Positions 1,273-42,708 of a stretch of DNA of 64,000 bases are shown in pieces; positions within the stretch are counted from its first letter, which is position 1, and each line of letters starts with the position of its first letter. Under the pieces are notes generated by a model that saw only the letters and a list, made by a program, of their open reading frames with translations, ran no database searches and was not told the DNA's origin. The translations under genes and the position numbers were made by a program. The stretch is from an uncultured candidatus Porisulfidus sp. (GTDB lineage: Bacteria > Pseudomonadota > Gammaproteobacteria > Poriferisulfidales > Poriferisulfidaceae): assembly GCA_965116025.1 (NCBI GenBank), contig OZ220480.1, positions 398,415 to 462,414 of the forward strand. Reading direction: 5' to 3'.

Positions 1273-1280
1273 CGGCGCGC

Positions 1281-1304
1281 GGCCCCGGCTTGAACGCCGG
1301 GGCC
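1281..1304. terminator. GC-rich hairpin between the convergent genes fmt and autotransporter 1
   Basis: A 9-bp stem GGCCCCGGC / GCCGGGGCC with a 6-nt loop (TTGAAC) sits between the fmt stop (1272) and the autotransporter stop (1320). There is no T-run, as is common in high-GC genomes. Confidence 0.45.
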
Positions 1305-1319
1305 ACGATCACAAGCCGG

Positions 1320-4300
1320 TCAGAAGCGAACCTTCAGCAGGACGCTCGCGCCGTAATCGTGATTGTCGCCATCCGACGCCGCGTAGTACGCGTCCGCCGA
1401 GAGCGTCGACTCCCCCTGCGCGTCCAGCGTCATCACGCCCCCGACGCCCAATCGCGCCCACGTCGACTCCACTTCCGAGCGCAGCCGCGCTCCCGACGCC
1501 ATCACCTCCCGGCTCTCCGAGAGATCGCGTTCCAAATCCAGAGAAGCGTACGTCTGGCCATTCTCCAATAACGCCCCGATCCGCGCCCTCACGCTGTCCT
1601 CCGAGCGAAACGACACCCGACCGCTCCCAGTAACCCCCGACACGTCGGCGAAGCCATCAACGTCCACCCAAATCCACGTCAATCCCCCGCGCGGAACCAG
1701 CGCGAAGCCGTCCATCTCCAGTCGCCTGCCAACCTCCACGCCGATCGCGTGACCCTCTCCGTCCAGACCGGACGCCACCATCCCGCGCGCCTCCGAACTC
1801 AAGTCGACGTCCTTGAAACGCGTGTACGAGAACTCCCCGTCCGCGTACCAGCCGTCCTCTCCCCGCCAGGTCGCCGAAGCCCCAACACCAACGCCCGAGA
1901 CCTCGATCTTCCCGCCGCGCGCGACGTCCGCCTCGCCATCACGGTAGTGCGCGCTCACCCCCAGCATAAGCCCCGGCGCGTCCGTGGGAACGACGAAGCC
2001 CGTCTCCACGCCCCAGCGCTCGAAGTCCCAAGACAGCGCGCGACCCGCATCGTCCATCTCGGTCGTGGACATATCCGCCTCCCGCTCGCCGTCGCTCGCC
2101 AACACCCGCGCCCACGCGCGCCCACCATCTCGCGTCGCCGACAAGCGCGCCTGGCGACCGCCCGGAGCGCTCATCTCCAGCAGCACCGACGGCAACGCCT
2201 CGTACACCCGAGCCCGGGCGTGGTACGTCCGACTGATCTCCTTCTCGGAGTCCACCTGGAACTGGTGCCCGCCCGTGATCGACTTCAGCGTGACCATCCG
2301 CTCGAACACCGCGTCGTACACCCCATGCGTCCCCGTCTTCCCCGACGTCGCCTTCACCGCGTCCCCCACGGCTATCGTCTTCGCCATGCCGGCCGTCGAC
2401 TCGCGCTGGAAGACGTTCGGCGTTTTATCGCCACTATTCAGGAATTTCCCCTTGACGAACGCGATCTGCCCATGCGCGTTCTCCTTCAGGGTGACATGCA
2501 GCGCCTTGTCCGCGCTCACCGCGATCCCCGACGTCGCGCCAATCTCCGCCTTCGGCCCGATCACCAGCGTCCCGCCGTTCACCATCCGAACGCCGGCGTG
2601 CTCGCCGGCGCCGCCCATCACCTTGCCGTTGATCGTGACCGTCTGGTCGTATTGCCCTTTCCGGGCGTGGTCGGACGCGAAGGTCCGCATCCCCTTGACA
2701 TGCACCCCGTCCTTCTTGGCCCGGATCGTCGCCATCTCCCCCACCGTGACCGTGATCTTCCCGGCCGTGGGCGCTTCCATTTCCGTGTAGGCAGTGGCGG
2801 TCTCCGCGTAGACTCCGTATCCATCAGCCATGATCACACCGCCCGACACATCGATCATGATTGGGATGATCATCTTTCGAGCGTCACCATCATCCGAATC
2901 GTCCAGGTCTTTCACGTAGGCCAGAATGCCGTCGCCCCTCGACATGATGTCCGCCTTCGACATGATCTTGATCTCCCCGATCTCGGTGGTGTAGGTCTCG
3001 GGGTTCCCCTCATCGAGCTCCTTGCCGGGAAGTGGCTGGGACTCCGCGCCCCCATGGATGGCGAGAATGCCGGCGGTCCGATCCTTCAGGTCCGCCAGCT
3101 TCGTCTGGTGATCCGCCGAGAGCGAGGAGGAGGAGAATACGTCGGACAGGTCGCCCGCGGTGATCTTCCCCGCCAAATGCTTCACGTCCACCTCGCCCCA
3201 ACCGGTATGCAACGCGAAGACCCCGGAGCCTTTCGCGTGGATGAGGCCCTCGTTGGTAATCATGACGGGGATCTCGTTGTCCGAGGATATGGTCTCGGCG
3301 AACACGCCATGCCCGCCGACTGGAGCGCCGGCGGTCCCGATCCGCGCTCCCTCGGAGACGGTCACCCGAATCGTTCCCCCGTGGGTCTGGTGGAGGGCGT
3401 ACACGCCATGTCGACCCACGGTCGGCTCGTCTCCTTCCATACCGATCCGCGCCCCCGACTTCAGCGTCACCTCAATGTCTCGGTTGATGTCGCCGCGCTG
3501 GCTGTCGTCGTGCGTCGTGCCCCGGTAAACGTAGATCCCGTCCCCGCCAGTTCCCGTCGAAGCGATCTCGCCCGCGAGATCCACCTTGACCAGACCACCG
3601 TTGTGGCCAGCGGAATTAACGTAAATTCCGTCTCCCACGATCTCCGTGTTCCGCCCGCCCGCCGTGATGACGCCCCCCGTCACGTCGACCGTCACCGGAA
3701 CCACGGAATCGGAGTCCCCTTGCGTAGTGACGGAGATGCCATAAGTGCGGGCCCAAATATCTCCGCTCGAGGTGATCATGATCGTGCCGCTAGGAACCTC
3801 GGCGGCGCCCATGGTCGTGTCCCTATGATCAACGGTTATACCATTTTCGTGGATAAACGCGTTATCGGCTAAATCCAGCGTGGCCTCATCGCCCGAGAGC
3901 GTTCGCGGGTAGAGAGGCCATTGCCTCTTGCTGACAAGCGTCCCGTGGTTCGTGACGGTGATGTCGCCCCCCTTGAAGAGGTTGACTAGAATGCCCTTGC
4001 TGGTCACGCTGCCCTTCGCCGTCTCGATGGCGACGTCTCCAGACCCCTCGTTGTACACGTAGATTCCTCGGTAATATCCGTAAATCTCGCCCCGGTTCAT
4101 GATCGAGACGTCGCCCTCGGCGGACGCGTTTCTGTAATACGCGAACACCCCATAAAGCCCCACCGGAATCTCCTCAGTGCCGATCCGCGCCTCGGCCCCG
4201 ACCGTGATCTCGATCTTGTCCGCCCTGTTGGTTTTGGAGGCTTTCTTGTTCCAGACGGTGATCCCGTAGTTCCTGTTGCCCCGCTGATACTGGGGATCAA

Positions 4301-4834
4301 TGAACGTCCCACTGAGCCGCTGGCCATTCTCCGTGTACATGGCCGTGGTGGGCGGAGTCCAACCGCCCGCCTCGTTCACGATCCTCACCTTGCCTTCCAG
4401 ATTCACCGTCAGCGCCCCGTCGCCGACCACCGCGACCCCGGGATTCCGGCCTTGGGTGGGACTGTCGGCAGAAGTGGGAGTATTGCGAGGAAGGAACGAC
4501 TTGATGGTCGTCATCTCCCCGGAAGGCTTCACGGTCAGCGTCAAGCCGCCTGTCTGACCCGTGTACTCGATAGGATTGGGAGTGGCGCTGGTGCCGCCGT
4601 AGGTCGAGGCGGCGCAGGTGACCGTTTTGGTGGCGCCGACATCGCCGCACTGGTTCGCCTTGGCGGAATGCGGAATCAGTGGGATCGAGAGAGCGGCCGT
4701 CAGCCCGGCCAGAGCGATCAGGAAACGAGGGCTATGCCCCCCCCCCCCCCCCCCCCCCCCCCTACGCGGGAAGACGACGAGGCGACGCGACGCGCGGCGC
4801 GCACGGTATCAGAAAAATGCGGGTTGACTCTCAT
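1320..4834 (-). CDS. autotransporter (type Va) copy 1: repetitive beta-helix passenger plus C-terminal beta-barrel; reading frame interrupted at a poly-G tract in this assembly
   Basis: The ORF track gives 1320..4544 (TTG start), and the C terminus ...DYGASVLLKVRF has a terminal aromatic residue, which is typical of an autotransporter barrel. The frame stays open upstream of 4544 and encodes a classical signal peptide, HSPRFLIALAGLTAALSIPLIPHSA/KA, but has no start codon. An ATG at 4834 with an SD-like AGGA opens a leader MRVNPHFSDTVRAARRVASSSSRV that runs into 26 G (4762..4737). This leader is 1 nt out of frame with the signal peptide. Confidence 0.8.
4737..4762 (-). repeat. homopolymeric tract, 26 G on the coding strand (C on the plus strand), inside the 5' coding region of autotransporter 1
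   Basis: Counted directly as plus-strand C 4737..4762. With 26 G the ATG frame terminates as ...RVGGGGGGGGGIALVS*. With 27 or 24 G the leader fuses in frame to the signal peptide. Confidence 0.9.
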
Positions 4835-4870
4835 TGAGAAATCCTGATGGCGATGAATGATTGGAGCGGA

Positions 4871-5209
4871 TTATACCCAAAACCCACGCGCCCAAAAATC
4901 CTCACCGGATGGCCAGAGACCGATTCCATCCGAGCAGATCAGGTTTTCGAGGGCATGATTTGGCCCGTACTCTCTAAAGATCGGGACTTCCCACGCTTGC
5001 CCGGGTCGCGCCTCGTCAATCGCTGTTCGGATATCTTCAATCTTATGCCGCGCCCATGCCATGCCGTAGCCATCAGCACGATGATTTCCACCCTTCTTCC
5101 AGCCAAATTTCGCTGATACCGTATATTTTTCCGTGGCCACTATGACCTGATACTCGCCGTCTTCGGCTTTTTGCATCAGCTCCCCATTCTCAAGCGATTC
5201 CCAACCCAT
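4871..5209 (-). CDS. hypothetical protein (112 aa) directly upstream of, and co-oriented with, autotransporter 1; lower GC (about 52%)
   Basis: The ORF has protein-like composition. It ends 36 bp before the autotransporter ATG. I recognise no family. Its GC is clearly below the surrounding DNA. Confidence 0.5.
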   Translation of the reverse strand: MGWESLENGELMQKAEDGEYQVIVATEKYTVSAKFGWKKGGNHRADGYGMAWARHKIEDIRTAIDEARPGQAWEVPIFREYGPNHALENLICSDGIGLWPSGEDFWARGFWV

Positions 5210-5285
5210 CTCCGCGGATCCGTCTACGGAATATCCTGTCAGATGTCCGCGAGGTGCACTGGAACCCCATGGATCGAACAGGACT

Positions 5286-5699
5286 TTACTGCTTCATGAT
5301 TGCATTGAGGGACTCGATTTCGCGCTTGAGCGCCGCGGTCATTTGCCATGGCTTGACCTCGGGCTACCACTCCAAAAACTCTTTCACGGAAGCACCGCTC
5401 TCGAGGTTCTTGAAGAGCGCGCAAACAGGCGCCCTGGTTCCCGTGAAGGACAAGGCTCCGCTAATCTTGCGGGAATTGCGTTCCACCGCGGAACATGTCG
5501 TCCAGTCGGCTATTTCTTCATCTCTTGCCAGTTCGCGACCGGTCTTTGGCCAAGCGCGCCACTTTCCTCCCGTTTCGCCTCGAAAGCGGACGGATTCCGC
5601 GGGGATAGACTTCGCAAGTAATTGATTTTTCAACGTTCTCTTTTTTCGAGGTCCGATGCGGCAAATACGATAAAGACGAGAGCGCAACCCTCGCGCCAA
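5286..5699 (-). pseudogene. DUF433-like gene interrupted by an in-frame TAG
   Basis: ORF 5364..5699 ends ...ISGALSFTGTRAPVCALFKNLESGASVKEFLEW, matching the DUF433 core (GTRIPV...G.S.EEIL). The same frame continues after the TAG at 5364-5366 as PEVKPWQMTAALKREIESLNAIMKQ, resembling the usual FP.LT.E.I.AAL tail, and stops at 5286. Confidence 0.35.
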
Positions 5700-5963
5700 G
5701 AGACTCGTTCGTAAGACTATGTTTATACTAGAATTTTAATACGCTACAATACCTGCCCGGATCACGAGAACCCTCATGCGCGCGCTCAGGCCTTCGCTGT
5801 CGCTCTCGAGCGCGTCGCAACGCGTCGATCCCATCCGCGAGACCAGCCGAATCGCCCGATTCGGCCATCGGGAGCGCCAAGACTTCCTAGGCTTGACCGA
5901 AGCCTTGGCGCGTCTCAGTTGGTTGTCGAAAGACCTTGATCGATACCAGGGCGAGGCCCTCCG

Positions 5964-8189
5964 ATGGTTCCTGCCCTGAGGTGGTTCCTGGCCGGCCCCT
6001 GGCCGGTCCTCGGGATCTTCTTGCTGCTGGCCGGGTCGCTGGCGATCATGGCCGAGGCGACCCAAAGTTCCGGGCATTTCCATCGCTGGCAGTGGTGGGT
6101 GGCCGGTTTCAACGGCGCGCTGGCCCTGGCGCTTCTGGCGCTGATCGGGCTCAGCCTTTCCGGCTTGATCCGCAGGCTGCGCCTGCGCGAGGCCGGCTCG
6201 CGCCTATCGTTGCGCATGACGGCCATGTTCGCCGGCTTCACGCTGATCCCGACCGCGATGGTGTTCGGCTTCTCGGTCTGGCTGATCTCCAGCGGAATCG
6301 ACAGCTGGTTCGACGTGGGAGTCGACGATACCTTGGGCAAGGCGATGGAGTTGAGCCGAACGTCCATCGACATGCAGATGCGGGAGCGCCGCGGCCAGGT
6401 GGAGCGTCTGTTGCGAGAGCCAGCGGACGTGGGCGACCCCGAGACCATGGTCGTGCGCATGAACGACCTGGTGGTCCAGACCGGGGCGCTGGAGGCGACC
6501 CTGCTGGATTCCAGCAATAAGATCGTCGCCTCCCAAGGAGAGGTTCCGGACATTCTTCCAGACCTGCCAGGCGAGGCCCAGCTCCAGCTGTTGCGGGAAA
6601 GCGGCGTTTACATGGCGCAGGAAGAGCACCCGGAGCACGGCCCCATCGTCCGCGTCCTGGTTCAGGTCCCGTCGCTGGTCCAGGAACTGCCTCTGGCCAC
6701 CGAGGATTCGCCATTGTCCCTGAGTCGGGAAATGCCCCTGATGAACCAGGAGTTGCCCCTGACGCTGCAAATCCTGTACCCGGTGTCCGAATACATGCTG
6801 GGCCTGACCGACAGCGTCGAGAAGGCGTCCGACACGTATCGGTTGCTTCTGGAGCTTCGGGGCCCCCTGAAATACAACCTCACCTTCGCGATGTCCCTGG
6901 CGGTCCTGCTGGGACTGCTGTTCGCGATATGGGCGGCCCTTTATTCCGCGCAACGCATCCTCTCCCCGATCGCGGAACTCTCGCGAGGCATCGAGGCCGT
7001 GGCGGCGGGCGAGTACAGCCAGCGTCTTCCGGCCGGGCGGCGCGACGAGCTCGGCCAGATGACGCGCTCTTACAACGGCATGATCGAGCGCCTGGCCAAC
7101 GCCCGGTACGTGGCGGAGACCCGCCGCCTGCTGATCGAGCGCCAGCACGCCTACCTGCATACGGTGCTGGAGCATCTGTCTTCCGGAGTCATCAGCGTCA
7201 ATGATCGCGGCGAGGTGGTCACCGTCAACCACGCCGTTAGCTCGATTCTGGAACTGGAGATCGGGCGATACCTCAAGAAGCCCCTCGGTCTCCCGCGCCA
7301 GGAGCATCCCCGGCTGGAGCCGCTGTGGGATTTGATGGACCGCCAACAGCATAGCGACGACGACCTCGGGGAGCAAGTGCAGATCGACGACGAGCTCAAG
7401 ATTCTGCATTGCCATGGCGCGCGACTGCCGAACGAGGCCGGCTACATAGTGGTGTTTGAGGACATCACGGACCTGCGGCAGGCGCAGCGGCAGGCGGCCT
7501 GGGGCGAGGTGGCCCGGCGAATGGCGCACGAGATCAAGAATCCGCTGACCCCCATCCGCCTCTCGGCCGAACGAATGCGGAGCCGCCTCCAGCCGCTCCT
7601 CGCCGCGAAAGACTCCGAGATCCTGCTGCGCTCCACGCGAACCATCGTGCGCCAGGTGGAATCGATGAATACCATGATCGACGAGTTTCGCGAGCATGCC
7701 GCCGCGCGCTTCACGCCCGAGAGGATGGATCTGAACGCTTTGAGCAGGGAGGTCCTCGATCTGTACATGAGCGACCGCGCGCGAATCTCCATCCACGCCG
7801 ATCTGAGCCACGCCCCGGCCTGGATCCGGGGCGACCCGGACCGAATGCGCCAGTTGCTGCATAACCTGATCAAGAACGCCCGGGAAGCGCAGGAGCGGCA
7901 GGCTAAAGGGTCGATCATCCTGAGCACCCGAGCGCGAAAGGGCGTGGTGACGCTGAAGGTGCGCGACTCCGGCCCCGGCTTCGCGCCAGAAATCCTCGGC
8001 CGGGCTCTGGAGCCGTACGTCACCACCAAGACCAGCGGGCATGGCCTGGGGCTCGCCGTCGTGTTCCGCGTCACGGAAGATCATCAAGGACGGATTCGCG
8101 TATACAATGACCCGGACGGAGGCGGGTGCGTGGAAATCGAGTTCGACGCGGCATCGCGGGAAGATCTGAGCCAGACGAGTCTCTTCTGA
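5964..8189 (+). CDS. ntrY: NtrY-like sensor histidine kinase (N-terminal transmembrane block, HAMP, PAS, HisKA, HATPase)
   Basis: 741 aa. It has several N-terminal hydrophobic segments, the H-box HEIKNPLTPIRLSAERM, and a C-terminal G-box (GHGLGLAVV). It is followed by an NtrX-like regulator and trkA, as in the conserved fmt-(rsmB)-ntrY-ntrX-trkA neighbourhood. Confidence 0.8.
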   Translation: MVPALRWFLAGPWPVLGIFLLLAGSLAIMAEATQSSGHFHRWQWWVAGFNGALALALLALIGLSLSGLIRRLRLREAGSRLSLRMTAMFAGFTLIPTAMVFGFSVWLISSGIDSWFDVGVDDTLGKAMELSRTSIDMQMRERRGQVERLLREPADVGDPETMVVRMNDLVVQTGALEATLLDSSNKIVASQGEVPDILPDLPGEAQLQLLRESGVYMAQEEHPEHGPIVRVLVQVPSLVQELPLATEDSPLSLSREMPLMNQELPLTLQILYPVSEYMLGLTDSVEKASDTYRLLLELRGPLKYNLTFAMSLAVLLGLLFAIWAALYSAQRILSPIAELSRGIEAVAAGEYSQRLPAGRRDELGQMTRSYNGMIERLANARYVAETRRLLIERQHAYLHTVLEHLSSGVISVNDRGEVVTVNHAVSSILELEIGRYLKKPLGLPRQEHPRLEPLWDLMDRQQHSDDDLGEQVQIDDELKILHCHGARLPNEAGYIVVFEDITDLRQAQRQAAWGEVARRMAHEIKNPLTPIRLSAERMRSRLQPLLAAKDSEILLRSTRTIVRQVESMNTMIDEFREHAAARFTPERMDLNALSREVLDLYMSDRARISIHADLSHAPAWIRGDPDRMRQLLHNLIKNAREAQERQAKGSIILSTRARKGVVTLKVRDSGPGFAPEILGRALEPYVTTKTSGHGLGLAVVFRVTEDHQGRIRVYNDPDGGGCVEIEFDAASREDLSQTSLF

Positions 8190-8223
8190 TGACGAGACGT
8201 GAGCCTGAGAGAGAGATGGCGGC

Positions 8224-9573: not shown

Positions 9574-9600
9574 GCGGGAACTGACCCTCTCTCCCGACAC

Positions 9601-10962: not shown

Positions 10963-10965
10963 CCC

Positions 10966-12432
10966 ATGCCGATCCAGTACCGGGTCGTCCAGCGCCTGCT
11001 CGGCTACCTGCTGACCGTTTTCAGTCTCGGAATGCTGCCTCCCTTGGCGCTGAGCCTGGCGCTGGACGACGGCGAGGCGTTCTCGTTCCTATACACGTTC
11101 TTCCTGCTGTCCCTCCTAGGCATCGCCCTGTGGGTCCAAGCCGCGCGCCGGGCCCCGCGCCGGCAACCTCTGCGACTGCGCGACGGCTTCGTGGTCGTCT
11201 CTCTGTTCTGGATCGGTCTGGGGCTGGCCGGGTCCATTCCCCTGTACATCTCGCCTTCTCTGCGACTCAGCGGAACCGACGCCGTGTTCGAGGCGGTCTC
11301 GGGGCTAACCACCACCGGCGCGACGGCGCTGTCGGGTCTGGACGGTATGCCTCCGTCCATCCTGTTCTACCGCCAGCTCCTGCAGTGGGTCGGCGGCCTC
11401 GGCATCATCGTGCTTGCGGTCGCCATCCTGCCTCTGGTCGGCATGGGGGGCGTGCAACTGTACCAGGCGGAAGCTCCGCACTCCCTAGCCGAGCGGCGTC
11501 TAACCCCGCGCATCGCCGAGACCGCCAAGGTGCTGCTGTATCTGTATTCCGGCCTGACCCTCGCCTGCGGACTCGCGTACTGGGGAGCCGGCATGAGCCC
11601 GTTCGACGCCGTCTGCCACGCGCTCTCCACCGTCGCCATCGGAGGCTTCTCCACCCACGACGCCAGCCTTGGACACTTCGACAGCGTTCTGATCGAGGCG
11701 ACCGCGATCATCTTCATGATCTTGGCCGGGGCGAATTTCGGGCTGCATTATCTGGCGCTGAGCCGGCGCGGCCTCCAACCGTACCTCCAAAACGGGGAAT
11801 TCCGCGCCTATATCACGGTGCTGGCCACGGTGGCCATCATCTGCGTCGGCTATCTTTGGGCCACGTCCTTCTCCGAAGACCCGCTCGAGACCGCGCGCCA
11901 CGGACTCTTCCAAGCCGTGTCCATCGCCACCACCACCGGATACGCCACGACCGGATACGACCACTGGCCCGCGTTCGCGTCCACGCTGCTCTTGCTCGCC
12001 AGCTTCATCGGCGGATGCGTCGGCTCCACTGGCGGCGGGATGAAGGTGATCCGATTCTTGCTGATGGTCAAGCACGGCGGCAAGGAACTGTACCGGATCA
12101 TCCACCCCTCCGTGCAGGTCACGGTCCGGATCGGAGACCGCGTGATGCCGCAAAGCGCCCTGCAGTCGGTCTGGGGATTCTTCGCCGCCTACATCACGAC
12201 CTTCACCGCGCTGTTTCTGCTGCTGATGATGACCGGGCTGGACCAAGTCAGCGCGTTCTCGGCGGTGGCCGCCACCCTCAACAACCTAGGGCCCGGACTC
12301 GGAGAGGTCAGCCAGAACTACGCCTCGGTGAGCGACTTCGGCAAGTGGCTGCTGTGCGCCAGCATGGTGTTCGGGCGCCTGGAGGTCTTCACCCTGCTGG
12401 TGATCCTGACACCGGCGTTCTGGCGCCGATAG
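10966..12432 (+). CDS. trkH: Trk potassium uptake permease
   Basis: 488-aa polytopic membrane protein beginning 3 nt after the trkA stop. It has the repeated GGxSTxD and GGCxGSTGGG pore-loop signatures of TrkH. Confidence 0.85.
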   Translation: MPIQYRVVQRLLGYLLTVFSLGMLPPLALSLALDDGEAFSFLYTFFLLSLLGIALWVQAARRAPRRQPLRLRDGFVVVSLFWIGLGLAGSIPLYISPSLRLSGTDAVFEAVSGLTTTGATALSGLDGMPPSILFYRQLLQWVGGLGIIVLAVAILPLVGMGGVQLYQAEAPHSLAERRLTPRIAETAKVLLYLYSGLTLACGLAYWGAGMSPFDAVCHALSTVAIGGFSTHDASLGHFDSVLIEATAIIFMILAGANFGLHYLALSRRGLQPYLQNGEFRAYITVLATVAIICVGYLWATSFSEDPLETARHGLFQAVSIATTTGYATTGYDHWPAFASTLLLLASFIGGCVGSTGGGMKVIRFLLMVKHGGKELYRIIHPSVQVTVRIGDRVMPQSALQSVWGFFAAYITTFTALFLLLMMTGLDQVSAFSAVAATLNNLGPGLGEVSQNYASVSDFGKWLLCASMVFGRLEVFTLLVILTPAFWRR

Positions 12433-12471
12433 CGCGACGAGTCTCCGCTTCCTGAAACGCGGCGGAAACGC

Positions 12472-13353
12472 TTATCGATACAGCGATTCGGGAGGAACCA
12501 GCCGCTTGCGAAAGCGCGGGTAGCTCCACCAGTACTGGGTCACGTCCTCGGCAATGGCCGTCTCCACCATGGCGTTGATCCCGGCCGCGGCCTCCTCCCG
12601 ATCCGGGGAGTAGACGCGCGGGTCGGCCGCGCGGAACGTGACATGGAACCCACCGCGGCGGCGGCTCGACTGAATCATGAGCGCGACGACATCCTGCCGC
12701 CGCGCCAGACGGGCGGCCAGACCGCCCGTGTTCGCCAGCACCCCGAAGAACGGCGCCATCACGCCGTCCTCCTTCCGGCGCGGGACGTGGTCCGGCAAGA
12801 TGCCGACCGCGCGCCCCTCCCGAAGCGCCTGCAAGAGCATGCGCACGCCGCCGCGGTCCGCGGGAACCAGAACCGCGCCGGTGTGCTGCCGTCCCTGGCG
12901 GACGAAGCCATCGATCCTGCGGTGCCTCAGCGGCCGGTACATGCTGCGCATGGCGACATGCCCGGTCAGGTACAGGCCGCTGAATTCCCAATTCCCGAAA
13001 TGCGGCGTCACCAGAACGATTCCCTTGCCGCTCGCCCGGGCCCGCTCCAGCAAATCCAGCCCCGTCACCCGAACCGCGAGAGACTCGATCCGCGCCGGCG
13101 ACAGGCGCCACAGGCGCGGCATCTCCAGCAGGGTGCGGGCCTCATGGATCAGACTCTTGCGCGCCACGCTCCAGCGCCAGGCATCGCTTTTCTCCGGGTA
13201 GCAGAGACGTAGATTCGCCAAGCAGATTTCGAGCCGGCGACCCGGCACGTAGCCGAGCCAGAGCCCCGCGAGGCCACCCAAAAGGCGCGACAGGGGCAAC
13301 GGCGCCAGCGAGAGAAGCCGTAGCAGAAACAGGGAAAAACGCGAATCGAGCAC
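12472..13353 (-). CDS. lipid A biosynthesis lauroyl/myristoyl acyltransferase family protein (LpxL/HtrB-like, LPLAT superfamily)
   Basis: It has an N-terminal hydrophobic anchor and the HFGNWE catalytic motif (HX4D/E type) found in the LpxL/LpxM family. 293 aa. Confidence 0.75.
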   Translation of the reverse strand: MLDSRFSLFLLRLLSLAPLPLSRLLGGLAGLWLGYVPGRRLEICLANLRLCYPEKSDAWRWSVARKSLIHEARTLLEMPRLWRLSPARIESLAVRVTGLDLLERARASGKGIVLVTPHFGNWEFSGLYLTGHVAMRSMYRPLRHRRIDGFVRQGRQHTGAVLVPADRGGVRMLLQALREGRAVGILPDHVPRRKEDGVMAPFFGVLANTGGLAARLARRQDVVALMIQSSRRRGGFHVTFRAADPRVYSPDREEAAAGINAMVETAIAEDVTQYWWSYPRFRKRLVPPESLYR

Positions 13354-13515
13354 GAAACTCTGGTCCCCGCGCGGCGGGTATAGGCTGGACTTCCCGGGAT
13401 TGATCGAGGCGGGATTCGTCCTAGCCGGAACGCGGTGTCGGCCAGCACGGGGCCATGGAACGGGCGGCCATGAGTCTTCCGTCCTCTTTGGTCATTTAGA
13501 GTCTAGAGTCGCGCC

Positions 13516-13629
13516 CTACGCGCCATACAAAACGTCCGTTATCAGATACGCGAGCCACGCGAACACCGCGAGGATCGGAGCGTACAGGCACAGCAATATT
13601 ATCGCCCAATGCCGCAGTTTCCGCATCAT
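13516..13629 (-). CDS. 37-aa hydrophobic peptide (predicted single transmembrane helix)
   Basis: An AGG sits before the ATGATG start. The product is MMRKLRHWAIILLCLYAPILAVFAWLAYLITDVLYGA. It is the third ORF of a tightly packed trio; see the findings. Confidence 0.35.
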   Translation of the reverse strand: MMRKLRHWAIILLCLYAPILAVFAWLAYLITDVLYGA

Positions 13630-13654
13630 ACCTACAACGTGGCCAGCTTGCGAC

Positions 13655-13861
13655 CTAGCGCCAGCGATTGTCGCAGGCACCAATCGTGCCGTCCGCGTGC
13701 GTGAGCAGCAGGTCGTGCTCAGCAGGCTTGAGCTGCTCCCCCGCGCGCCAGCACCGATGCAGAACTTGCACTCTCGATGCCTCGCCATTCCCCACCAGAC
13801 TGGGCGAGTCTTCGGGATCTTCCCGAAATTGAATAACGTCGTCGTGCTTGCCGCCCATCAT
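13655..13861 (-). CDS. 68-aa hypothetical protein whose start overlaps the stop of the upstream 47-aa ORF
   Basis: ORF track 13655..13861. Its ATG overlaps the TGA of the upstream ORF (ATGA). I recognise no family. Confidence 0.4.
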   Translation of the reverse strand: MMGGKHDDVIQFREDPEDSPSLVGNGEASRVQVLHRCWRAGEQLKPAEHDLLLTHADGTIGACDNRWR

Positions 13862-14001
13862 CCCAAGAAGTCAAAATCGGACTCGACCAACTCGTCCGCG
13901 CTCACGCCCATAAGCGTGACGCTCACGCCTTCCCGGCACTCGGTGATCACCGCGTTACTGGCTTCGCTGTCCGTGATCGTCAAGTCTTTGTATTTCGCCA
14001 T
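13858..14001 (-). CDS. 47-aa ORF ending in the C-terminal motif ...ELVESDFDFLG, which it shares with the two RTX-like proteins
   Basis: Manual translation of the minus strand gives MAKYKDLTITDSEASNAVITECREGVSVTLMGVSADELVESDFDFLG*. The stop is at 13860..13858 and overlaps the start of the next ORF. It falls below the length cutoff of the ORF track. Confidence 0.45.
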   Translation of the reverse strand: MAKYKDLTITDSEASNAVITECREGVSVTLMGVSADELVESDFDFLG

Positions 14002-14206
14002 ACTAATTTAGACGCGCTCCGCGAGGCCGGTGCTAGTGTAGCAGACTATCCCGACCGGGAATCCGCGCTAGGAAAACTTGGAATAAGCAACCTTGAAACT
14101 GGCTTTATGAACCGCGCGTGCCATCCACTCATCGATTAGCGTATCCGCGTCCAGCCCCGCCCCCGCGGGAACGCCGTTATAGAATGAGCGGCGCTCACCC
14201 ACCCCG

Positions 14207-15157
14207 ATGCTCTACCCCGCGATCCGCCCCTATTCGACCCGTCGCCTGCAGGTCGACGGGCGACATGCATTGCATGTGGAGGAGTGCGGCAGTCCAGAGG
14301 GCGTGCCGGTGGTGTTCCTGCACGGCGGCCCGGGCGCAGGTTGCGAGGACTACCATCGCCAGTTCTTCGATCCGGAGAAATACCGAATCGTGCTGTTCGA
14401 CCAGCGCGGCGCCGGACGCTCGACGCCCCACGCGGACTTGACCGACAACACCACGGCTCATCTAGTCGAGGACATCGAGAAGATCCGCGAGGAGCTGGGA
14501 ATCGACCGGTGGCTCGTGTTCGGCGGCTCCTGGGGCTCCACCCTCGGGCTGGCCTACGCCCAGAGCCACCCGAAACGCGCGCTGGGCCTGATCTTGCGCG
14601 GCATCTTCCTGTGCCGGCGGCGCGACCTCCTTTGGTTCTACCAGGAAGGCGCGGACAATATCTTCCCCGATTACTGGCGGGACTTCTTGGAGCCCATACC
14701 GGAAGCGGAGCGCGGCGACCTGATGCGGGCCTACCACCACCGACTGACCGGGCCTGACGAGCTGATCCGCATGAAGGCGGCCAAGGCCTGGGCGCTCTGG
14801 GAGGCGCGCTGCTCGAATCTGCAGCACGACGCCCGGGTCGTGGAGGCGTTCAGCGACCCGCACATGGCGCTCGGTCTGGCGCGCGTGGAGTGCCACTACT
14901 TCGTCAACCGAATCTTCCTGCCAGAGAACCAGTTGCTGAAGCGAATCGGGAAACTGACGGGGGTTCCGGGAATTCTGGTGCATGGACGCTACGATATCGT
15001 CTGCCCCATCGATCAGGCTTTCGCGCTGCATCGCGCCTGGCCCGGGTCGCGCCTGGACCTAATTGCCGAAGCGGGGCACTCGGCCCGAGAGCAGGGCATC
15101 ACCACCGCCCTGATCGCGGCCACCGAGGAGATGCACTCGCGCCTGACTCGGGCGTGA
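14207..15157 (+). CDS. pip: proline iminopeptidase
   Basis: It contains the LHGGPGAG and GGSWGSTLGLAY (GxSxG nucleophile) motifs of the alpha/beta-hydrolase Pip family. 316 aa. Confidence 0.9.
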   Translation: MLYPAIRPYSTRRLQVDGRHALHVEECGSPEGVPVVFLHGGPGAGCEDYHRQFFDPEKYRIVLFDQRGAGRSTPHADLTDNTTAHLVEDIEKIREELGIDRWLVFGGSWGSTLGLAYAQSHPKRALGLILRGIFLCRRRDLLWFYQEGADNIFPDYWRDFLEPIPEAERGDLMRAYHHRLTGPDELIRMKAAKAWALWEARCSNLQHDARVVEAFSDPHMALGLARVECHYFVNRIFLPENQLLKRIGKLTGVPGILVHGRYDIVCPIDQAFALHRAWPGSRLDLIAEAGHSAREQGITTALIAATEEMHSRLTRA

Positions 15158-15703
15158 GGCCTGGACGGCCTAGCCCAGCGCTAGTCCCCGCCTGTCCGGC
15201 GGCATCCGGTTCCGGTCGGCGACCCTCGCGGCGCGGTGCCAGCTGGAGGCCCTCTTGGGAAAAACTTCGCGGTCAGCTCGACTTCGCTCATGCCGACACC
15301 CATCCCACGGGAGGATTCTCAATTTCCGAGCTAACGCCGATTTTGAGGAAATTCCTAGATGGTTTCTCGCCTTCACGGACGCGCTAGGAAATGCGGGTAG
15401 GTATTTGGGGCGGCCGAGGACGGCTCGGGTAGATTTTCGCGAGAAAAACTCGGATTCCACCCGATTCTCGTAGAGCGTAGCTTGGCCTCTCGCGCGCCTA
15501 CGCGAGCCGCGTCTTCCAAATGGCCCGTCTTTTCCCTGAAAGCGCCAGCTTCGAGCGGTCAGAACGTGTCCCAAGCCGGAAGACCAGATATTCGGCGCGA
15601 CACGCTCCTGACATCCAGCACGTGATCCCTCCGGAAGCCCACCCACAACTTCCGGACTCGTCGGATCAGTTTCGCGCCGAGGCCGGCCGCGATCACAAGT
15701 CGG

Positions 15704-18700
15704 TCAGAAGCGAACCTTCAGCAGGACGCTCGCGCCGTAATCGTGATTGTCGCCGTCCGACGCCGCGTAGTGAGCGTCACCCGATAGCGTCGACTCCCCT
15801 TGCGCGTCCAAGACCATCACGCCCCCGCTGCCCAAACGCGCCCACGTGGACTCCACCTCCGAGCGCAGCCGCGACCCCGAAGCCATCACGTCCCGGCTCT
15901 CCGACAGCTCGCGCTCCACGTCCAATGAGGCGTACGTCTCGCCGTTCTCCAACAGTACCCCGATACGCGCCCGCGCGCTGTCCTCCGAGCGAAACGACAC
16001 CCGACCGCTTCCAGCAACGCCCGAAACGTCGGCGAAGTCGTCGACATCCACCCATGTCCACGTCAATCCTCCGCGCGGGATCAGCGCGAAGCCGTCCATC
16101 TCCATGCGCCTGCCGACCTCCACGCCGACCGCGTGACCCTCTCCGTCCAGACCGGACGCCACCATCCCCCGAGTCTCCGAGCTCAGGTCGACATCCTCGA
16201 AACGCGTGTACGAGAGCTCCCCGTCCGCGTACCAGCCGTCCTCCCCCCGCCAAGTCGCCGATGCCCCGACGCCCACGCCCGAGACCTCGATCTTCCCGCC
16301 CCGCGCGACGTCCGCCTCGCCGTCGCGGTAGTGCGCGCTCACGCCCAGCATCAGCCCCGGCGCGTCCGTAGGAACGACGATGCCCGTCTCCACGCCCCAG
16401 CGCTCGAAATCCCAAGACAGCGCGCGACCCGCATCGTCCATCTCGGTCGTGGATGTCTCCACCTCCCGCTCGCCGTCGCTCGCCAACACCCGCGCCCACG
16501 CGCCCCCGCCGTCCCGCGTCGCCGACAAACGCGCCTGACGACCGCCCGGCGCGCTCATCTCCAGCAGCACCGACGGCAGCGCCTCGTACACCCGAGCCCG
16601 GGCATGGTACGTCCGGCTGATCTCCTTCTCGGAGTCCACCTGGAACTGATGCCCGCCCGTGATCGACCTCAGCGTGACCATCCGCTCGAACACCGCGTCG
16701 TACACCCCATGCGTCCCCGTCTTCCCCGACGTCGCCTTCACCGCGTCCCCCACGGCGATCATCTTCTTCGCGCCGGCCATCAACTCCCGCTGGAAGACGT
16801 TCGGCGCGTCCTTTCCACTGTTCAGGAATTTCCCCATGACGAAAGCGATCTGCCCATGCTCGTTCTCCTTCAGGGTGACATGCAGCGCCTTGTCCGCGCT
16901 CACCGCGATCCCCGACGTCGCGCCGATCTCCGCCTTCGGCCCGATCATCAGCGTCCCGCCGTTCACCATCCGAACGCCGGCGTGCTCGCCGCCGCCGCCC
17001 ATCACCTTGCCGTTGATGGTGACCGTCTGGTCGTAGTGCCCCGCCCGGGTAGCGTGATCTTCCGCGAAGGTCCGCATGCCCTTGACATGCACCCCGTCCT
17101 TCTTGGCCCGGATCGTCGCCATCTCCCCTACCGTGACGCTGATCTTCCCGGCTTTCGGCGCGTCCTCGTCCTCGTAGGTGGTGGCCGTCTCCGCGTGCAC
17201 GCCATGCCCGTCCGCCATGATCGTTCCGCCAGCCACGTCGATCTTGATCGGGACGATCATCTCGATGTCCTGTACCCCCTCCGCGTCGTTCAAGTCTTTC
17301 ACATAGGCGAGAATGCCGTCGCCCTTCGACGTGACGCTCCCTTTCGACGTGATCTCGATCTTCCCGATCTTGGCCTCGTAGGTGGAGGGGGCTTGAGAGT
17401 CGACCGCCGTCTCGTCGGAAGCCGCCTGGGGCCGCGAACTCCCATGAACGGCGAGGATGCCGGCGGTCCTGCCTTTCAGGTCCGCCAATTCCATCTTTTC
17501 AGACTCCGTTATGGAATCCACGTCACTGTCCAAGATATCGAGCGCGTCGCCCGCGACGATCTCGCCCTTCAAGTGCTTCGCGACCACGTCGCCCCAGCCG
17601 CGATGCAGAGCGGCCACCCCCGAGCCCTTCGCGTGGATGAAGCCTTCGTTGGTGACCGTGATATCAGTCTCGTCAGTAGAATTGACCACATTAGTGAACA
17701 CGCCGTGTCCGCCAACCGGAGTCCCCGCGGTCCCGATCATCGCTCCCTCGGATACCGTCACCCGGATCGCTCCCCCGTAGATTTGCTGCTGGACGAGCAC
17801 GCCATGCCGACCCACGGTCGGCTCGTCTCCCTCCACGCCGATCCGCGCCCCGGACTTCAGCGTCACCTCAATGCCGCTGGGTTTCACGACGGCCGCCGGT
17901 TTGGTCGGTCGGAACCGATACGCATGGATGCCATCGCCACCTTCGCCAGCTGTGCCCGTCCGGGTGATCGCGCCCGCCAGATCCACCTTGACGAGACCCC
18001 CGTTATGCTCATGATGAATTTTGATCCCGTGGCCGTTCAATCCGCCCCCCATGAGGCTCCCTCCCGTCACGTTGATCGTGACCGGAACCACGGAATCGTC
18101 GTCCCCTTTCGTCGTGACTCGAATGCCTTCCGTCCACCAATAGGGCGCGACGCCCGGGTCCGTCACGACCTCGATGTCGCCGCTCGACGTGATCGAGACC
18201 TCGCTGCTGGCCTGCCCGTCCGCGGCCGGAGCGCTCTTGTCCTCGTGAAACACGTGAATCCCGGCGCGCGCGTACGCGCTTCGAGTTTCCACATGCCCGC
18301 TCTCCGTCGGATTCGCCATTTTCAGATAGCGGAGCGGATGGCTCTGAACCACGATCTTGCCCTCATGGACGATCGTGATGTCACCGCCGCCAGAAGACGA
18401 GCCCGGGGCTATCCAAACATCCCTAAGCCAGCGCTCTTCCAGACCCTCGTCCTGGAGATTCCCCGCCGACGCCCGGATCCCTTGCGAGGTCACGCTATTC
18501 TTCGCCGTCTTGATCACGGTGTCGCCCCCGCCCGAGCGATGCGCCAGTATCCCGGCATACGTCCCGTAAATCTCGCCCGCGTTCGTCACGCTGATGTCCG
18601 TGTCATGCTGAAAGTACGCTAGAACGCCGTACCCGCCCATCGGTTTGTCCTCGGTTCCGATCCGCGCCTCGTCTCCCACCATCACCTCGGCGCGGTCCTT

Positions 18701-19296
18701 CTGAGCGTCGGCGTCGCTTCCCAAGTGCTTCACGTAGACGCCGTGGTTGAGCCCCGCCCCGCGGTCCCTCGAATCAATGGCCTTCCCGATGCGCGTGACC
18801 GTCGTGGACAGCCCCGTCACGAGCCTCCGGGTCGCCCCGCTCTCAATGCGGACCCGCCCATCGAGAACGACTTTCTTCAGGGCGCCGGGCCCGCTCAGGA
18901 CGATCCCCGGCCGAGCGTCGCTCGCGCCACTGGGTATTCCACTGGACGTGATGGTGACCGTGCCCGCCCCGGAAGGCTGGACCGTCAGCGTCACGCTCCG
19001 GCCTGGCGCGGCGAGATCGTATCCGATCGGCGGGCCGTCGGCCTTGGTGTAGGTCGGGTCGTCGCAAGTGACTTCGGCGGCGCCCGAGCCGCTGGGAAGG
19101 TCGCCGCAGTTTCCCGTGTCCGCCGCCATGGCGGAGTGCGGAATCAGCGGAATGGAGAGAACGGCCGTCAATCCGGCCAGAACGGTCAGGAAACGGAGGC
19201 TATGCCCCCCCCCCCCCCCCCCCCCCCTACGCGGGAAGACGACGAGGCGACGCGAAACGCGGCGCGAATCTCGGAAACGGACAGGTTCTTGGTCAT
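15704..19296 (-). CDS. autotransporter (type Va) copy 2, paralogue of 1320..4834; reading frame interrupted at a poly-G tract in this assembly
   Basis: The ORF track gives 15704..19171 (TTG start inside the signal peptide, ...LTVLAGLTAVLSIPLIPHSAMA). Its C terminus ...LLKVRF is about 93% identical to copy 1 over roughly the last 600 aa. An ATG at 19296 opens the leader MTKNLSVSEIRAAFRVASSSSRV, followed by 23 G (19227..19205), and is 1 nt out of frame (ORF 19186..19371 in the track). Confidence 0.8.
19205..19227 (-). repeat. homopolymeric tract, 23 G on the coding strand, inside the 5' coding region of autotransporter 2
   Basis: Plus-strand C run 19205..19227. The count is consistent with the track ORF 19186..19371, which encodes ...RVGGGGGGGGIASVS*. 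24 or 21 G would restore the frame. Confidence 0.85.
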
Positions 19297-19409
19297 TATT
19301 CGTCCCTTTTCAAGGATCAATCTCGGATGGCCGCGCATTATACCCCCAGCGCCCGCGCGCTTCCAAACCAAAATAATCGCGCCGAATCGCCACCGCCGAG
19401 CGCGCCCTG

Positions 19410-19446: not shown

Positions 19447-19522
19447 GGCCAGGTAGCTCAGTCGGTAGAGCAGGGGACTGAAAATCCCCGTGTCGGCGGT
19501 TCGATTCCGTCCCTGGCCACCA
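19447..19522 (+). tRNA. tRNA-Phe (GAA)
   Basis: A 76-nt cloverleaf GGCCAGGTAGCTCAGTCGGTAGAGCAGGGGACTGAAAATCCCC...TGGCCACCA, with anticodon loop CT-GAA-AA and an encoded CCA end. Confidence 0.95.
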
Positions 19523-42454: not shown

Positions 42455-42708
42455 AAGATTATATTCTGAATGCGCTCGCGCAAATTCAAAACGGCTATTC
42501 TCAATGTGGAATCGCTGATCGTATAGTCTCGTGTTCATCCACTTGGTTTGGACGCGAAAGCATGTCCGAACGCATCAAGTCCTGGTTGAAAGAAAACTCT
42601 AGTGACGCGCGGCGACTTTCATCACGACCCTCACTCAGGTCCAAGAAGGCCATGATGCGAACGCCGATCAAGGAAGCGGATATCTGCCATTTATCTGGGC
42701 AGCCGTAA
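42451..42708 (+). CDS. 85-aa ORF that exactly bridges the MTase stop and the Res-like start
   Basis: Its ATG overlaps the upstream TGA (ATGA), and its TAA overlaps the downstream ATG (TAATG). It has low complexity and no recognisable fold. Confidence 0.35.
   Translation: MKDYILNALAQIQNGYSQCGIADRIVSCSSTWFGRESMSERIKSWLKENSSDARRLSSRPSLRSKKAMMRTPIKEADICHLSGQP

What the first reader, a model, noticed from the sequence alone, without database searches (positions are those of the whole stretch)
1320..19296. Two autotransporter paralogues with an identity gradient: nearly identical barrel and distal passenger, diverged N-terminal passenger
The roughly 600 C-terminal residues, and even about 15 nt beyond the stop codon, are about 90% or more identical between 1320..3100 and 15704..17500. 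The N-terminal passenger repeats (ARIGTE...HGV.A...GD.SI.N.G beta-helix units) are clearly homologous but substantially diverged. Copy 2 also carries extra repeat units (1155 versus 1074 aa). This pattern fits gene conversion or recombination homogenising the 3' halves while the exposed N-terminal passenger diversifies. Combined with the poly-G switches, it looks like an antigenic-variation gene family.
Basis: seen in the sequence. Interest (0 to 1): 0.6.

Follow-up and report, generated by a model that had tools for sequence, protein, structure and literature searches.

The report
Phase-variable autotransporter family with homogenised tails
The two genes belong to a family of at least 23 surface-protein genes in a 2-Mb bacterial genome: each carries a long run of G's that can switch it on or off, the membrane-anchor ends are kept alike by copying between genes while the exposed ends differ, and this pathogen-style surface-variation system sits in a bacterium whose nearest relatives come from sponge metagenomes.

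Summary
Copy 1 (1320..4834, -) and copy 2 (15704..19296, -) are classical type Va autotransporters. The last about 487 codons, not about 600, are 90.8% identical in DNA. The mid passenger is 71% identical and the N-terminal passenger 50%. Homology stops about 20 nt after the stop codon.

The gradient also holds at silent sites. Four-fold-site identity is 49%, 68% and 84% (p = 9e-11). Barrel dS is 0.32, against 1.08 in the N-terminal passenger.

The pair is part of a family of at least 23 paralogues on one 2,018,984-bp chromosome. Their barrels cluster strictly by genome. Their passenger types are as old as the split between genomes, and passenger modules reassort. This is concerted evolution plus segmental recombination.

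Every member examined carries a homopolymer between a 23-24-codon leader and the signal peptide. It is a G-tract of 19-26 nt in the window copies and their nearest relatives, shorter in more distant ones, and poly-C in one. Both wrong frames meet conserved stop codons at once. As assembled, both window copies are OFF, and 4 of the 23 are clearly ON.

The true difference is 28 aa, from loop insertions.

This is a new member of a known kind, comparable to Opa or PmpG contingency families, in an unusual ecological setting.

The parts
1301..4891 (-). Copy 1: the whole unit homologous to copy 2, from about the -10 box to about 20 nt past the stop codon.
   Evidence: blastn alignment 4891..1301 versus 19358..15685. 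Identity profile.
4870..4875 (-). Copy 1: TATAAT, a -10-like hexamer 36 nt upstream of the ATG.
   Evidence: Read from the sequence. The same hexamer sits at the matching place in copy 2, and relatives have TAGAAT or CAGAAT there. The promoter scanner found no full -35/-10 match, so promoter function is inferred.
4763..4834 (-). Copy 1: start codon (4834..4832) and 24-codon leader MRVNPHFSDTVRAARRVASSSSRV.
   Evidence: The last 28 nt are identical to copy 2.
4737..4762 (-). Copy 1: poly-G tract of 26 nt (poly-C on the + strand). The frame is +2, which is OFF. Reading from the ATG gives a 38-aa peptide that ends at the conserved TGA.
   Evidence: The gene is in frame only when the tract length is a multiple of 3.
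4656..4736 (-). Copy 1: signal peptide HSPRFLIALAGLTAALSIPLIPHSAKA.
   Evidence: Read from the translation: a basic n-region, a hydrophobic core and an A-x-A site. No signal-peptide predictor was available.
2780..4655 (-). Copy 1: variable beta-helix passenger, with the N-terminal part 50% and the mid part 71% identical in DNA to copy 2.
1320..2779 (-). Copy 1: homogenised 3' block, made of the distal passenger, the linker helix (about 2169..2219), the 12-strand barrel (about 1323..2120) and the stop codon (1322..1320).
   Evidence: 90.8% DNA identity, and four-fold sites 84% identical. PF03797. Positions mapped from the model of P0001.
1278..1307 (-). Copy 1: GC-rich hairpin with a 12-bp stem, 15 nt after the stop codon and without a U-tail.
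   Evidence: RNA fold gives -36.9 kcal/mol, z = -3.7. Copy 2 has no equivalent (z = -0.7).
15685..19358 (-). Copy 2: the whole homologous unit.
19337..19342 (-). Copy 2: TATAAT, a -10-like hexamer 41 nt upstream of the ATG.
   Evidence: Read from the sequence. Aligned with copy 1.
19228..19296 (-). Copy 2: start codon (19296..19294) and 23-codon leader MTKNLSVSEIRAAFRVASSSSRV.
19205..19227 (-). Copy 2: poly-G tract of 23 nt. The frame is +2, which is OFF. Reading from the ATG gives a 36-aa peptide that ends at the conserved TGA.
19124..19204 (-). Copy 2: signal peptide HSLRFLTVLAGLTAVLSIPLIPHSAMA.
17167..19123 (-). Copy 2: variable beta-helix passenger, carrying 23-aa and 10-aa loop insertions relative to copy 1.
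   Evidence: The 23-aa insertion falls in a low-confidence loop of the model.
15704..17166 (-). Copy 2: homogenised 3' block, made of the distal passenger, the linker helix (16553..16603), the barrel (15707..16504) and the stop codon (15706..15704).

Best explanation
The two genes are members of a dispersed family of at least 23 classical (type Va) autotransporters with adhesin-like beta-helix passengers. Each member is a complete expression unit with its own -10-like box, ATG and 23-24-codon leader. A poly-G tract follows the leader: 23 and 26 nt in the two window copies, and about 16-24 nt inferred from the glycine runs of the in-frame paralogues. After the tract come the signal peptide, passenger, linker helix and barrel.

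Inferred switch. Slipped-strand mispairing at the tract changes its length. When the tract is in frame it encodes a short glycine run and the protein is exported. In either wrong frame, translation stops within 1-7 codons at a conserved TAG or TGA, so no signal peptide is made and nothing reaches the surface. Each gene therefore switches independently, and a population displays changing subsets of the repertoire.

Shown by sequence comparison. Non-reciprocal recombination between paralogues keeps the membrane-proximal roughly 490 codons nearly uniform within a genome. The same process shuffles passenger modules, so old and divergent tip types persist and are recombined.

The selective agent is not known. 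It could be host phagocytes, another form of host recognition, or phage.
For: Architecture:
- PF03797 and TIGR01414 match the C-terminus.
- The AlphaFold2 model (pLDDT 78.5) shows a beta-rich passenger at residues 17-841, a helix at 843-859 and a 12-strand barrel.

Switch:
- The tracts are 26 and 23 nt, with identical flanks. The chance expectation is 8e-7.
- The downstream sequence CATAGyCCyCGTTTCCTGA is conserved in most of the six loci from three assemblies. It places TAG in the +1 frame and TGA in the +2 frame.
- Tract lengths are 19-26 nt in these relatives. One relative (L027, 19 nt) is in frame and the others are out of frame.
- Among the 23 paralogues, 4 are called from the canonical ATG with a Gly5-8 run, 1 is ambiguous, and 18 are truncated calls that start after the tract.
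- In a Paracoccaceae metagenome-assembled genome, members with the same ATG context have tracts of 9 and 12 nt (ON) and 10, 10, 11 and 11 nt (OFF).

Concerted evolution:
- Silent-site gradient.
- Barrel dS 0.32 and dN 0.04 within the genome, against 0.57-0.78 and 0.27-0.42 between genomes. N-terminal passenger dS 1.08 within, against 0.78-0.99 between.
- Complete clustering of barrels by genome.
- The same gradient appears in the 20 family copies of the Paracoccaceae metagenome-assembled genome (MAG), and low within-genome barrel divergence in the ERZ25068685 assembly.

Mosaicism:
- The nearest neighbour of P0001 changes from P0002/P0003 to P0016 to P0004/P0005. That of P0010 changes from P0019 to P0018 to P0007.
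- The three types of segment 730-825 combine freely with the N-terminal types.
Against: - No switching was observed. There are no reads, and the assemblies are probably from HiFi data, in which homopolymers of 20 nt or more are error-prone. The ON or OFF state of any single gene is therefore uncertain.
- DNA of the other 21 paralogues could not be fetched. Tracts in 18 of them are inferred from truncated gene calls, and recombination among them is shown only at the protein level.
- dS in the N-terminal passenger is near saturation, and alignment there is uncertain.
- Only a few outgroup genomes were available.
- No full sigma-70 promoter match was found.
- The source organism and host are unknown.
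Confidence: 0.8

Rival explanations
1. This is a simple old duplication. The barrel and distal passenger look alike only because purifying selection on the protein is stronger there, and no gene conversion occurred.
For: dN is very low in the barrel (0.01-0.08), so constraint is real and adds to the contrast.
Against: Silent sites show the same gradient: four-fold-site identity is 49% against 84%, p = 9e-11. Barrel dS within the genome is half the between-genome value, whereas passenger dS is equal to or above it. Barrels cluster perfectly by genome.
Confidence: 0.04
2. The family arose by a recent burst of duplication within this lineage, followed by very fast diversifying selection on the exposed N-terminal passenger. 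The 3' end is simply the part that has not yet diverged.
For: N-terminal dN/dS is fairly high, at about 0.54. Two mid-passenger windows have dN at or above dS (0.39/0.31 and 0.43/0.32). One patch (3116..2937) has 13 of 13 four-fold sites identical despite many amino-acid changes.
Against: N-terminal silent sites are as diverged within the genome as between genomes. Passenger types are shared across genomes, with up to 77% identity against a within-genome median of 44%. Modules reassort, which point mutation alone cannot do. Diversifying selection may still act in addition to recombination.
Confidence: 0.08
3. The frameshifted genes are pseudogenes or artefacts of homopolymer sequencing. The poly-G tract would then be a mutational scar or an error, not a switch.
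For: Both window copies, and most family members, are out of frame as assembled. Long homopolymers are hard to sequence.
Against: Apart from the tract, the ORFs are intact for 1138 and 1166 codons, with dN much lower than dS in the barrel. The tract sits at the same codon position in at least three assemblies and in an alphaproteobacterial family. The stop codons in both wrong frames are conserved. In-frame members exist.
Confidence: 0.05
4. The tract works mainly at the RNA or ribosome level. Transcriptional slippage or frameshifting on the long G run would give a fixed low fraction of in-frame product from every copy. It would be an expression throttle rather than a heritable ON/OFF switch.
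For: Tracts of 19-26 nt are much longer than the 8-14 nt typical of DNA-level switches (background knowledge). Long homopolymers are known to cause RNA polymerase slippage, which is best documented for A/T runs.
Against: Tract lengths differ between paralogues and orthologues in a way that changes the frame. That shows DNA-level length change does occur. The two mechanisms do not exclude each other.
Confidence: 0.1

Closest known systems
Neisseria Opa (opacity protein) family
   Same: About 11 dispersed, complete genes. Each is switched independently by a repeat inside the signal-peptide coding region, and few are in frame at any time. Recombination and gene conversion between loci create mosaics and near-identical alleles (PMC3745409 abstract; PMC13183285).
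   Different: Opa proteins are small 8-strand barrels whose variable parts are loops, and the repeat is the pentamer CTCTT. Here the proteins are autotransporters of 1140-1170 aa, the repeat is a G homopolymer, there are at least 23 copies, and the setting is not a human pathogen.
Chlamydia polymorphic membrane proteins, PmpG subfamily
   Same: An expanded paralogous autotransporter family with poly-G (sometimes poly-C) tracts of varying length, frameshifts at the tract, and suggested gene conversion (10.1101/506121).
   Different: There is no Chlam_PMP (GGA/FxxN) repeat match in Pfam, so this is not a Pmp family member. Here the tract sits at a fixed place between the leader and the signal peptide, with conserved stop codons in both wrong frames. 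The organism is a high-GC proteobacterium.
Helicobacter pylori Hop/Bab outer-membrane protein family (from background knowledge, not checked here)
   Same: Paralogues have near-identical 5' and 3' ends and a divergent middle. Gene conversion occurs between babA, babB and babC. 5' dinucleotide repeats give phase variation.
   Different: These are not autotransporters, they use CT repeats, and far fewer members carry a repeat.
Single phase-variable autotransporters such as Neisseria NalP and AutA (from background knowledge)
   Same: Type Va autotransporters switched by a coding-region homopolymer or short repeat. The NalP barrel is a structural match.
   Different: They are single genes, not a recombining family, and their passengers are proteases or other functional domains.
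Bordetella Vag8, pertactin and BrkA, and E. coli UpaB
   Different: No sequence-level relationship was found: the PDB profile search gave no hit. Passenger function here is unknown.

Membership tests
Type Va (classical) autotransporter | C-terminal 12-strand beta-barrel translocator domain | tested here: met
Type Va (classical) autotransporter | Alpha-helical linker between passenger and barrel | tested here: met
   Predicted helix at residues 843-859 of P0001. This is a prediction only.
Type Va (classical) autotransporter | N-terminal Sec signal peptide | tested here: met
   HS(L/P)RFL, then a hydrophobic core, then PHSA(M/K)A, read directly after the tract. Judged by eye, because no predictor was available.
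Type Va (classical) autotransporter | Beta-helical passenger | tested here: met
Simple-sequence contingency locus (slipped-strand phase variation) | Hypermutable repeat inside the reading frame or promoter, far beyond chance | tested here: met
   G26 and G23 lie between the leader and the signal peptide. The expected number of such runs is 8e-7.
Simple-sequence contingency locus (slipped-strand phase variation) | Repeat length differs among homologous loci and sets the frame in or out | tested here: met
   Tracts are 19-26 nt in six loci, one of them in frame. They are 9-14 nt in the Paracoccaceae copies, with a mix of ON and OFF. Four of the 23 paralogues are in frame.
Simple-sequence contingency locus (slipped-strand phase variation) | Out-of-frame states abolish the product | tested here: met
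   A conserved TAG in the +1 frame and TGA in the +2 frame lie within 7 codons. Downstream start codons would lack the signal peptide.
Simple-sequence contingency locus (slipped-strand phase variation) | Reversible, heritable switching, or length heterogeneity within a population | not testable with these tools
   This needs the raw reads or cultures.
Multigene family under concerted evolution (gene conversion) | A segment is more alike among paralogues within a genome than between genomes, while other segments are not | tested here: met
   Barrel identity is 0.79-0.96 within the genome and at most 0.65 between genomes. The N-terminal passenger has a within-genome median of 0.44 and a best between-genome value of 0.77.
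Multigene family under concerted evolution (gene conversion) | The pattern holds at synonymous sites | tested here: met
Multigene family under concerted evolution (gene conversion) | Segment relationships are discordant (mosaics) | tested here: met
   at the protein level only. Formal DNA tests on all 23 genes were not possible.
Chlamydial Pmp family | Chlam_PMP (GGA[ILV]/FxxN) repeats in the passenger | tested here: not met
   The Pfam scan returned only PF03797.
Autotransporter extended signal peptide region (ESPR, PF13018) | Match to the ESPR motif in the N-terminal extension | tested here: not met
   Reconstructed in-frame N-termini gave no Pfam hit at E <= 10. The leader resembles ESPR only in its position.
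Silent-cassette antigenic variation (pilE/pilS or msp2 type) | One expression site plus promoterless partial cassettes | tested here: not met
   Both window copies are full-length, each with its own -10-like box, ATG and leader. tblastn finds no partial copies elsewhere in the window. The rest of the genome was not examined.

The most novel reading that the evidence does not exclude
The G-tract may be more than a frame switch. As a run of 19 or more G's on the non-template strand just downstream of the promoter, it could fold into a G-quadruplex during transcription and start the inter-paralogue gene conversion, as the pilE G4 does in Neisseria. That would couple ON/OFF switching to module shuffling. 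The whole leader-tract-autotransporter module would also have spread horizontally among sponge-associated Gamma- and Alphaproteobacteria, as a surface-variation device used by symbionts.
Probability: 0.1. Interest if true: 0.8.

Novelty: new member of a known kind. Interest (0 to 1): 0.55.

Why it matters
Families of surface proteins that combine stochastic switching with gene conversion are a textbook trait of small-genome pathogens facing adaptive immunity. Here, at least 23 such genes take up about 4% of a 2.0-Mb genome. The only relatives found come from long-read assemblies deposited at ENA. They include metagenome-assembled genomes labelled Gammaproteobacteria, Candidatus Poriferihabitaceae (a family reported from a sponge metagenome) and Paracoccaceae.

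If the host is an invertebrate without adaptive immunity, the pressure must be something else, such as phagocyte recognition or phage. That question becomes testable with the existing read sets.

There is also a practical point. Automatic gene calling gave 18 of the 23 members a start downstream of the tract, and the short-read-derived collections searched here contain no relatives. Families like this are therefore easy to miss.

Tried and rejected
- Fetching the other paralogues' DNA: the look-up of encoding contigs has no record for P0001 or P0002. All family-wide recombination analysis is therefore at the protein level.
- The GTDB genome scan did not contain the source genome. It gave only relatives at 32-46% identity.
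- JGI metagenomes gave no hit, either with the tract-flank DNA motif or with the protein profile.
- A profile search of the PDB gave no sequence relative.
- Pfam and NCBIfam found no passenger domain and no ESPR match.
- A tblastx synteny comparison of the relatives' flanks with the window gave only noise. A cleaner ORF blastp showed no shared housekeeping genes. The taxonomy of the source therefore stays unresolved.
- The promoter and terminator scan found nothing on the gene strand.
- Literature searches found no report of phase variation or of this family in sponge symbionts, and no paper citing the accession numbers.
- I considered a silent-cassette system and rejected it, because both copies are complete expression units.
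- I considered an assembly collapse or duplication artefact and rejected it, because the copies differ at 135 of 1460 positions in the 3' block.
Full report

**Real gene starts and the G-tract.**
- The ORF-finder starts (TTG) are not the real starts. Upstream of each gene lie a TATAAT hexamer, an ATG (4834 in copy 1, 19296 in copy 2) and a leader of 24 or 23 codons ending in ...ASSSSRV.
- A poly-G run of 26 nt (4762..4737) or 23 nt (19227..19205) follows. Directly after it comes a typical signal peptide, HS(P/L)RFL...AGLTA..SIPLIPHSA(K/M)A.
- The 28 nt before the tract are identical in the two copies and occur nowhere else in the window.
- A G or C run of 23 nt or more is expected 8e-7 times in this window.
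- The gene is in frame only when the tract length is a multiple of three. With 26 and 23 G's, both copies are in the +2 frame and end after 38 and 36 codons.
- The sequence after the tract, CATAGyCCyCGTTTCCTGA, is conserved in most of six loci from three assemblies. It puts TAG in the +1 frame and TGA in the +2 frame.
- Any downstream start codon would lack the signal peptide, so an out-of-frame copy cannot place protein on the surface.

- DNA homology spans 4891..1301 against 19358..15685.
- DNA identity by region:

| Region (copy 1 coordinates) | DNA identity |
|---|---|
| Promoter and 5'UTR | 51% |
| Leader | 73% |
| Signal peptide | 67% |
| N-terminal passenger | 49.8% |
| Mid passenger (3470..2780) | 70.6% |
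| 3' block (2779..1323) | 90.8% |

- Homology then continues for about 20 nt past the stop codon with 2 mismatches and ends.
- The high-identity block is therefore about 487 codons (about 91% amino-acid identity), not about 600.
- The reported 81-aa length difference comes from the ORF start positions. From the first codon after the tract, the proteins are 1138 and 1166 aa. The difference is made of scattered loop insertions (23, 10 and 6 aa and others), not added repeat units.

**Constraint or recent exchange?**
- I computed Nei-Gojobori distances in 50-codon windows. dS is mostly 0.7 to above 2 in the first 650 codons and 0.05-0.57 in the last 490.
- At four-fold degenerate sites, identity is 48.7% (58/119) in the N-terminal part, 67.9% (55/81) in the middle and 84.0% (221/263) in the 3' block. 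Composition-based chance values are 37-46%. Fisher p = 9e-11.
- The 3' similarity is therefore not explained by protein constraint alone.
- Within the block, similarity is uneven. The longest identical run is 88 nt (permutation p = 0.02). Identity peaks in the distal passenger at about 2680..2285, not in the barrel.

**The pair is part of a large family.**
- A protein search found 23 paralogues (P0001-P0023, 53-100% identical to copy 2), all on one contig of 2,018,984 bp. Copy 2 is P0001 and copy 1 is P0010. Together they make up about 4% of that genome.
- Seven further relatives (47-51% identical) come from two ENA assemblies.
- A scan of one genome per GTDB species found more distant relatives. 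These were in metagenome-assembled genomes (MAGs) labelled Gammaproteobacteria, Candidatus Poriferihabitaceae and Paracoccaceae; the last has about 20 copies.
- Candidatus Poriferihabitaceae belongs to the Arenicellales in the Gammaproteobacteria. It is reported from the Phakellia ventilabrum sponge metagenome, a HiFi/metaMDBG assembly (PMC12859430).
- The source organism of the window itself could not be identified. The flanking genes are ordinary housekeeping genes: fmt, ntrYX-like, trkA, trkH, lpxL-like and pip.
- The passenger is rare. A profile search of 1.84 billion representative proteins gave 81 hits, and only 4 of them span the whole passenger. JGI metagenomes gave none.

**Concerted evolution.**
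- In the barrel (P0001 residues 825-1141), within-genome identity is 0.79-0.96 and between-genome identity never exceeds 0.65.
- In the N-terminal passenger (residues 20-380), the within-genome median is 0.44 while the best between-genome match reaches 0.77. There, 65% of within-genome pairs are less alike than a protein's best foreign match.
- At the DNA level, the two window copies are as far apart in the N-terminal passenger (dS 1.08, dN 0.58) as either is from the other assemblies (dS 0.78-0.99, dN 0.52-0.61). In the barrel they are much closer (dS 0.32, dN 0.04, against 0.57-0.78 and 0.27-0.42).
- The three paralogues from assembly ERZ25068685 have equally low barrel divergence (barrel dS 0.13-0.24). 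The Paracoccaceae copies show the same identity gradient as the window pair.
- Passenger types are thus at least as old as the split between these genomes, whereas the 3' part is repeatedly homogenised inside each genome.

**Mosaicism.**
- The nearest paralogue changes along the gene. For P0001 it is P0002/P0003 over residues 1-470 (up to 98%), P0016 over 471-648 (81-91%), and P0004/P0005 over 729-920 (97-100%, where the family median is 43%).
- For P0010 it is P0019/P0011/P0020, then P0018 (96%), then P0007 (96-99%).
- Segments were clustered at 80% identity. The distal passenger (650-730) and the barrel each form a single cluster. Segment 730-825 has three types (11, 6 and 6 members), which combine freely with the nine N-terminal types.
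- Exchange is therefore segmental along the whole gene, not just a homogenised 3' half.
- No partial copies or silent cassettes occur elsewhere in the window.

**Phase states.**
- Among the 23 gene calls, four (P0003, P0014, P0015, P0022) begin at the canonical leader and contain Gly5-8 followed by HSLRFL, so they are in frame.
- P0005 is ambiguous, because an upstream ATG in the shifted frame gives an alternative reading.
- The other 18 calls begin inside or after the signal peptide, as expected for out-of-frame copies.
- Four of 23 is below the one-third expected at random, but not significantly so (P = 0.076). The same tendency is reported for gonococcal opa genes (PMC13183285).
- In the relatives, L027 (G19) is in frame, and L024 (G25), L025 (G23) and L026 (G20) are not.
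- In the Paracoccaceae MAG, members sharing the same ATG context have G9 and G12 (in frame) and G10, G10, G11 and G11 (out of frame).
- One member there uses poly-C19 instead. The Gammaproteobacteria MAG copy has only G6 at the same site, in frame.
- Exact lengths of such homopolymers in long-read consensus sequences are unreliable, so the state of any individual gene is provisional. The presence, position and length variability of the tract are robust.

**Mechanism and standing of each step.**
- Shown: the architecture, the tract in the reading frame with conserved stop codons in both wrong frames, length variation that sets the frame across paralogues and orthologues, homogenisation of the 3' block at silent sites, and reassortment of modules.
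- Inferred: that slipped-strand mispairing changes tract length at high rate and reversibly; that gene conversion rather than reciprocal exchange is the process; that the TATAAT boxes are promoters; and that the benefit is escape from host recognition or phage.
- A contribution from RNA-level slippage on such long tracts cannot be excluded.

**Comparison with known systems.** In function this most resembles two known families.
- The Neisseria Opa family has dispersed complete genes, a repeat in the signal-peptide coding region, few genes in frame, and inter-locus recombination and gene conversion (PMC3745409; PMC13183285).
- The chlamydial PmpG autotransporters have poly-G tracts, many paralogues and suggested gene conversion (10.1101/506121).

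It is not a member of the Pmp family, since it has no Chlam_PMP repeats. It is not a pilE/pilS-type cassette system, and its leader is not a recognisable ESPR.

I found no description of this family, or of phase variation in sponge-associated bacteria, in the searchable literature.

**Verdict.** It should be reframed as two members of a 23-gene, poly-G-switched, recombining autotransporter family. It is a new member of a known kind, of moderate interest mainly because of its size, its very long tracts, and its likely non-pathogen, invertebrate-associated setting.

Noticed in passing
window 42708..47098 (+): This low-GC segment (0.51-0.56, against about 0.65 elsewhere) encodes a ResIII-type helicase with a TnsA-like nuclease C-terminus, followed by an N6/N4 DNA methylase. 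It is probably a type III-like restriction-modification island.
   Followed up: partly
window 34436..35608 (-): A 390-aa protein made almost entirely of RTX calcium-binding nonapeptide repeats (9 matched stretches, E = 4e-62). It is another likely secreted or surface protein.
   Followed up: no
window 31216..32193 (+): A strong match to the MbnB/TglH/ChrH family of RiPP precursor-modifying enzymes (E = 9e-97). This hints at a peptide natural-product locus next to the tRNA cluster at 29406..29764.
   Followed up: no
window 19447..19522 (+): tRNA-Phe lies about 100 nt upstream of, and divergent from, the copy 2 promoter region. Homology with copy 1 ends just before it.
   Followed up: no
window 4871..5209 (-): A 112-aa ORF with no Pfam or NCBIfam match lies directly upstream of copy 1, in a lower-GC stretch (0.587).
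   Followed up: partly
window 3116..2937 and about 3524..3375 (-): In these mid-passenger patches, silent sites are conserved (13 of 13 four-fold sites identical; dS 0.31-0.32) but amino acids differ (dN 0.39-0.43). This could mean diversifying selection on recently exchanged segments, but the samples are small.
   Followed up: partly
L010 4255..4273; L001 4891..4896: One Paracoccaceae family member has poly-C19 (which would encode Pro) at the switch position instead of poly-G. The Gammaproteobacteria metagenome-assembled genome copy has only G6 there, in frame, and may be a fixed-ON version.
   Followed up: partly
L025 6610..8124; L027 1..2828; L025 8598..9249; L026 1..2598; L001 about 1163..4000: In relatives, family members sit next to IS transposases (DDE_Tnp_1_4 and IS4) and often next to a second family member.
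   Followed up: no
L024 2843..2953; L025 2838..2930: Gene callers annotated 36-aa and 30-aa 'genes' that are really the leader plus tract plus the out-of-frame tail of switched-off autotransporters. In the source genome, 18 of the 23 members were likewise given wrong starts.
   Followed up: yes
window 56966..56973 and 58831..58838: These are the only other G/C runs of 8 nt or more in the window (C8 each). About 10 such runs are expected from base composition, so homopolymers are otherwise depleted.
   Followed up: no
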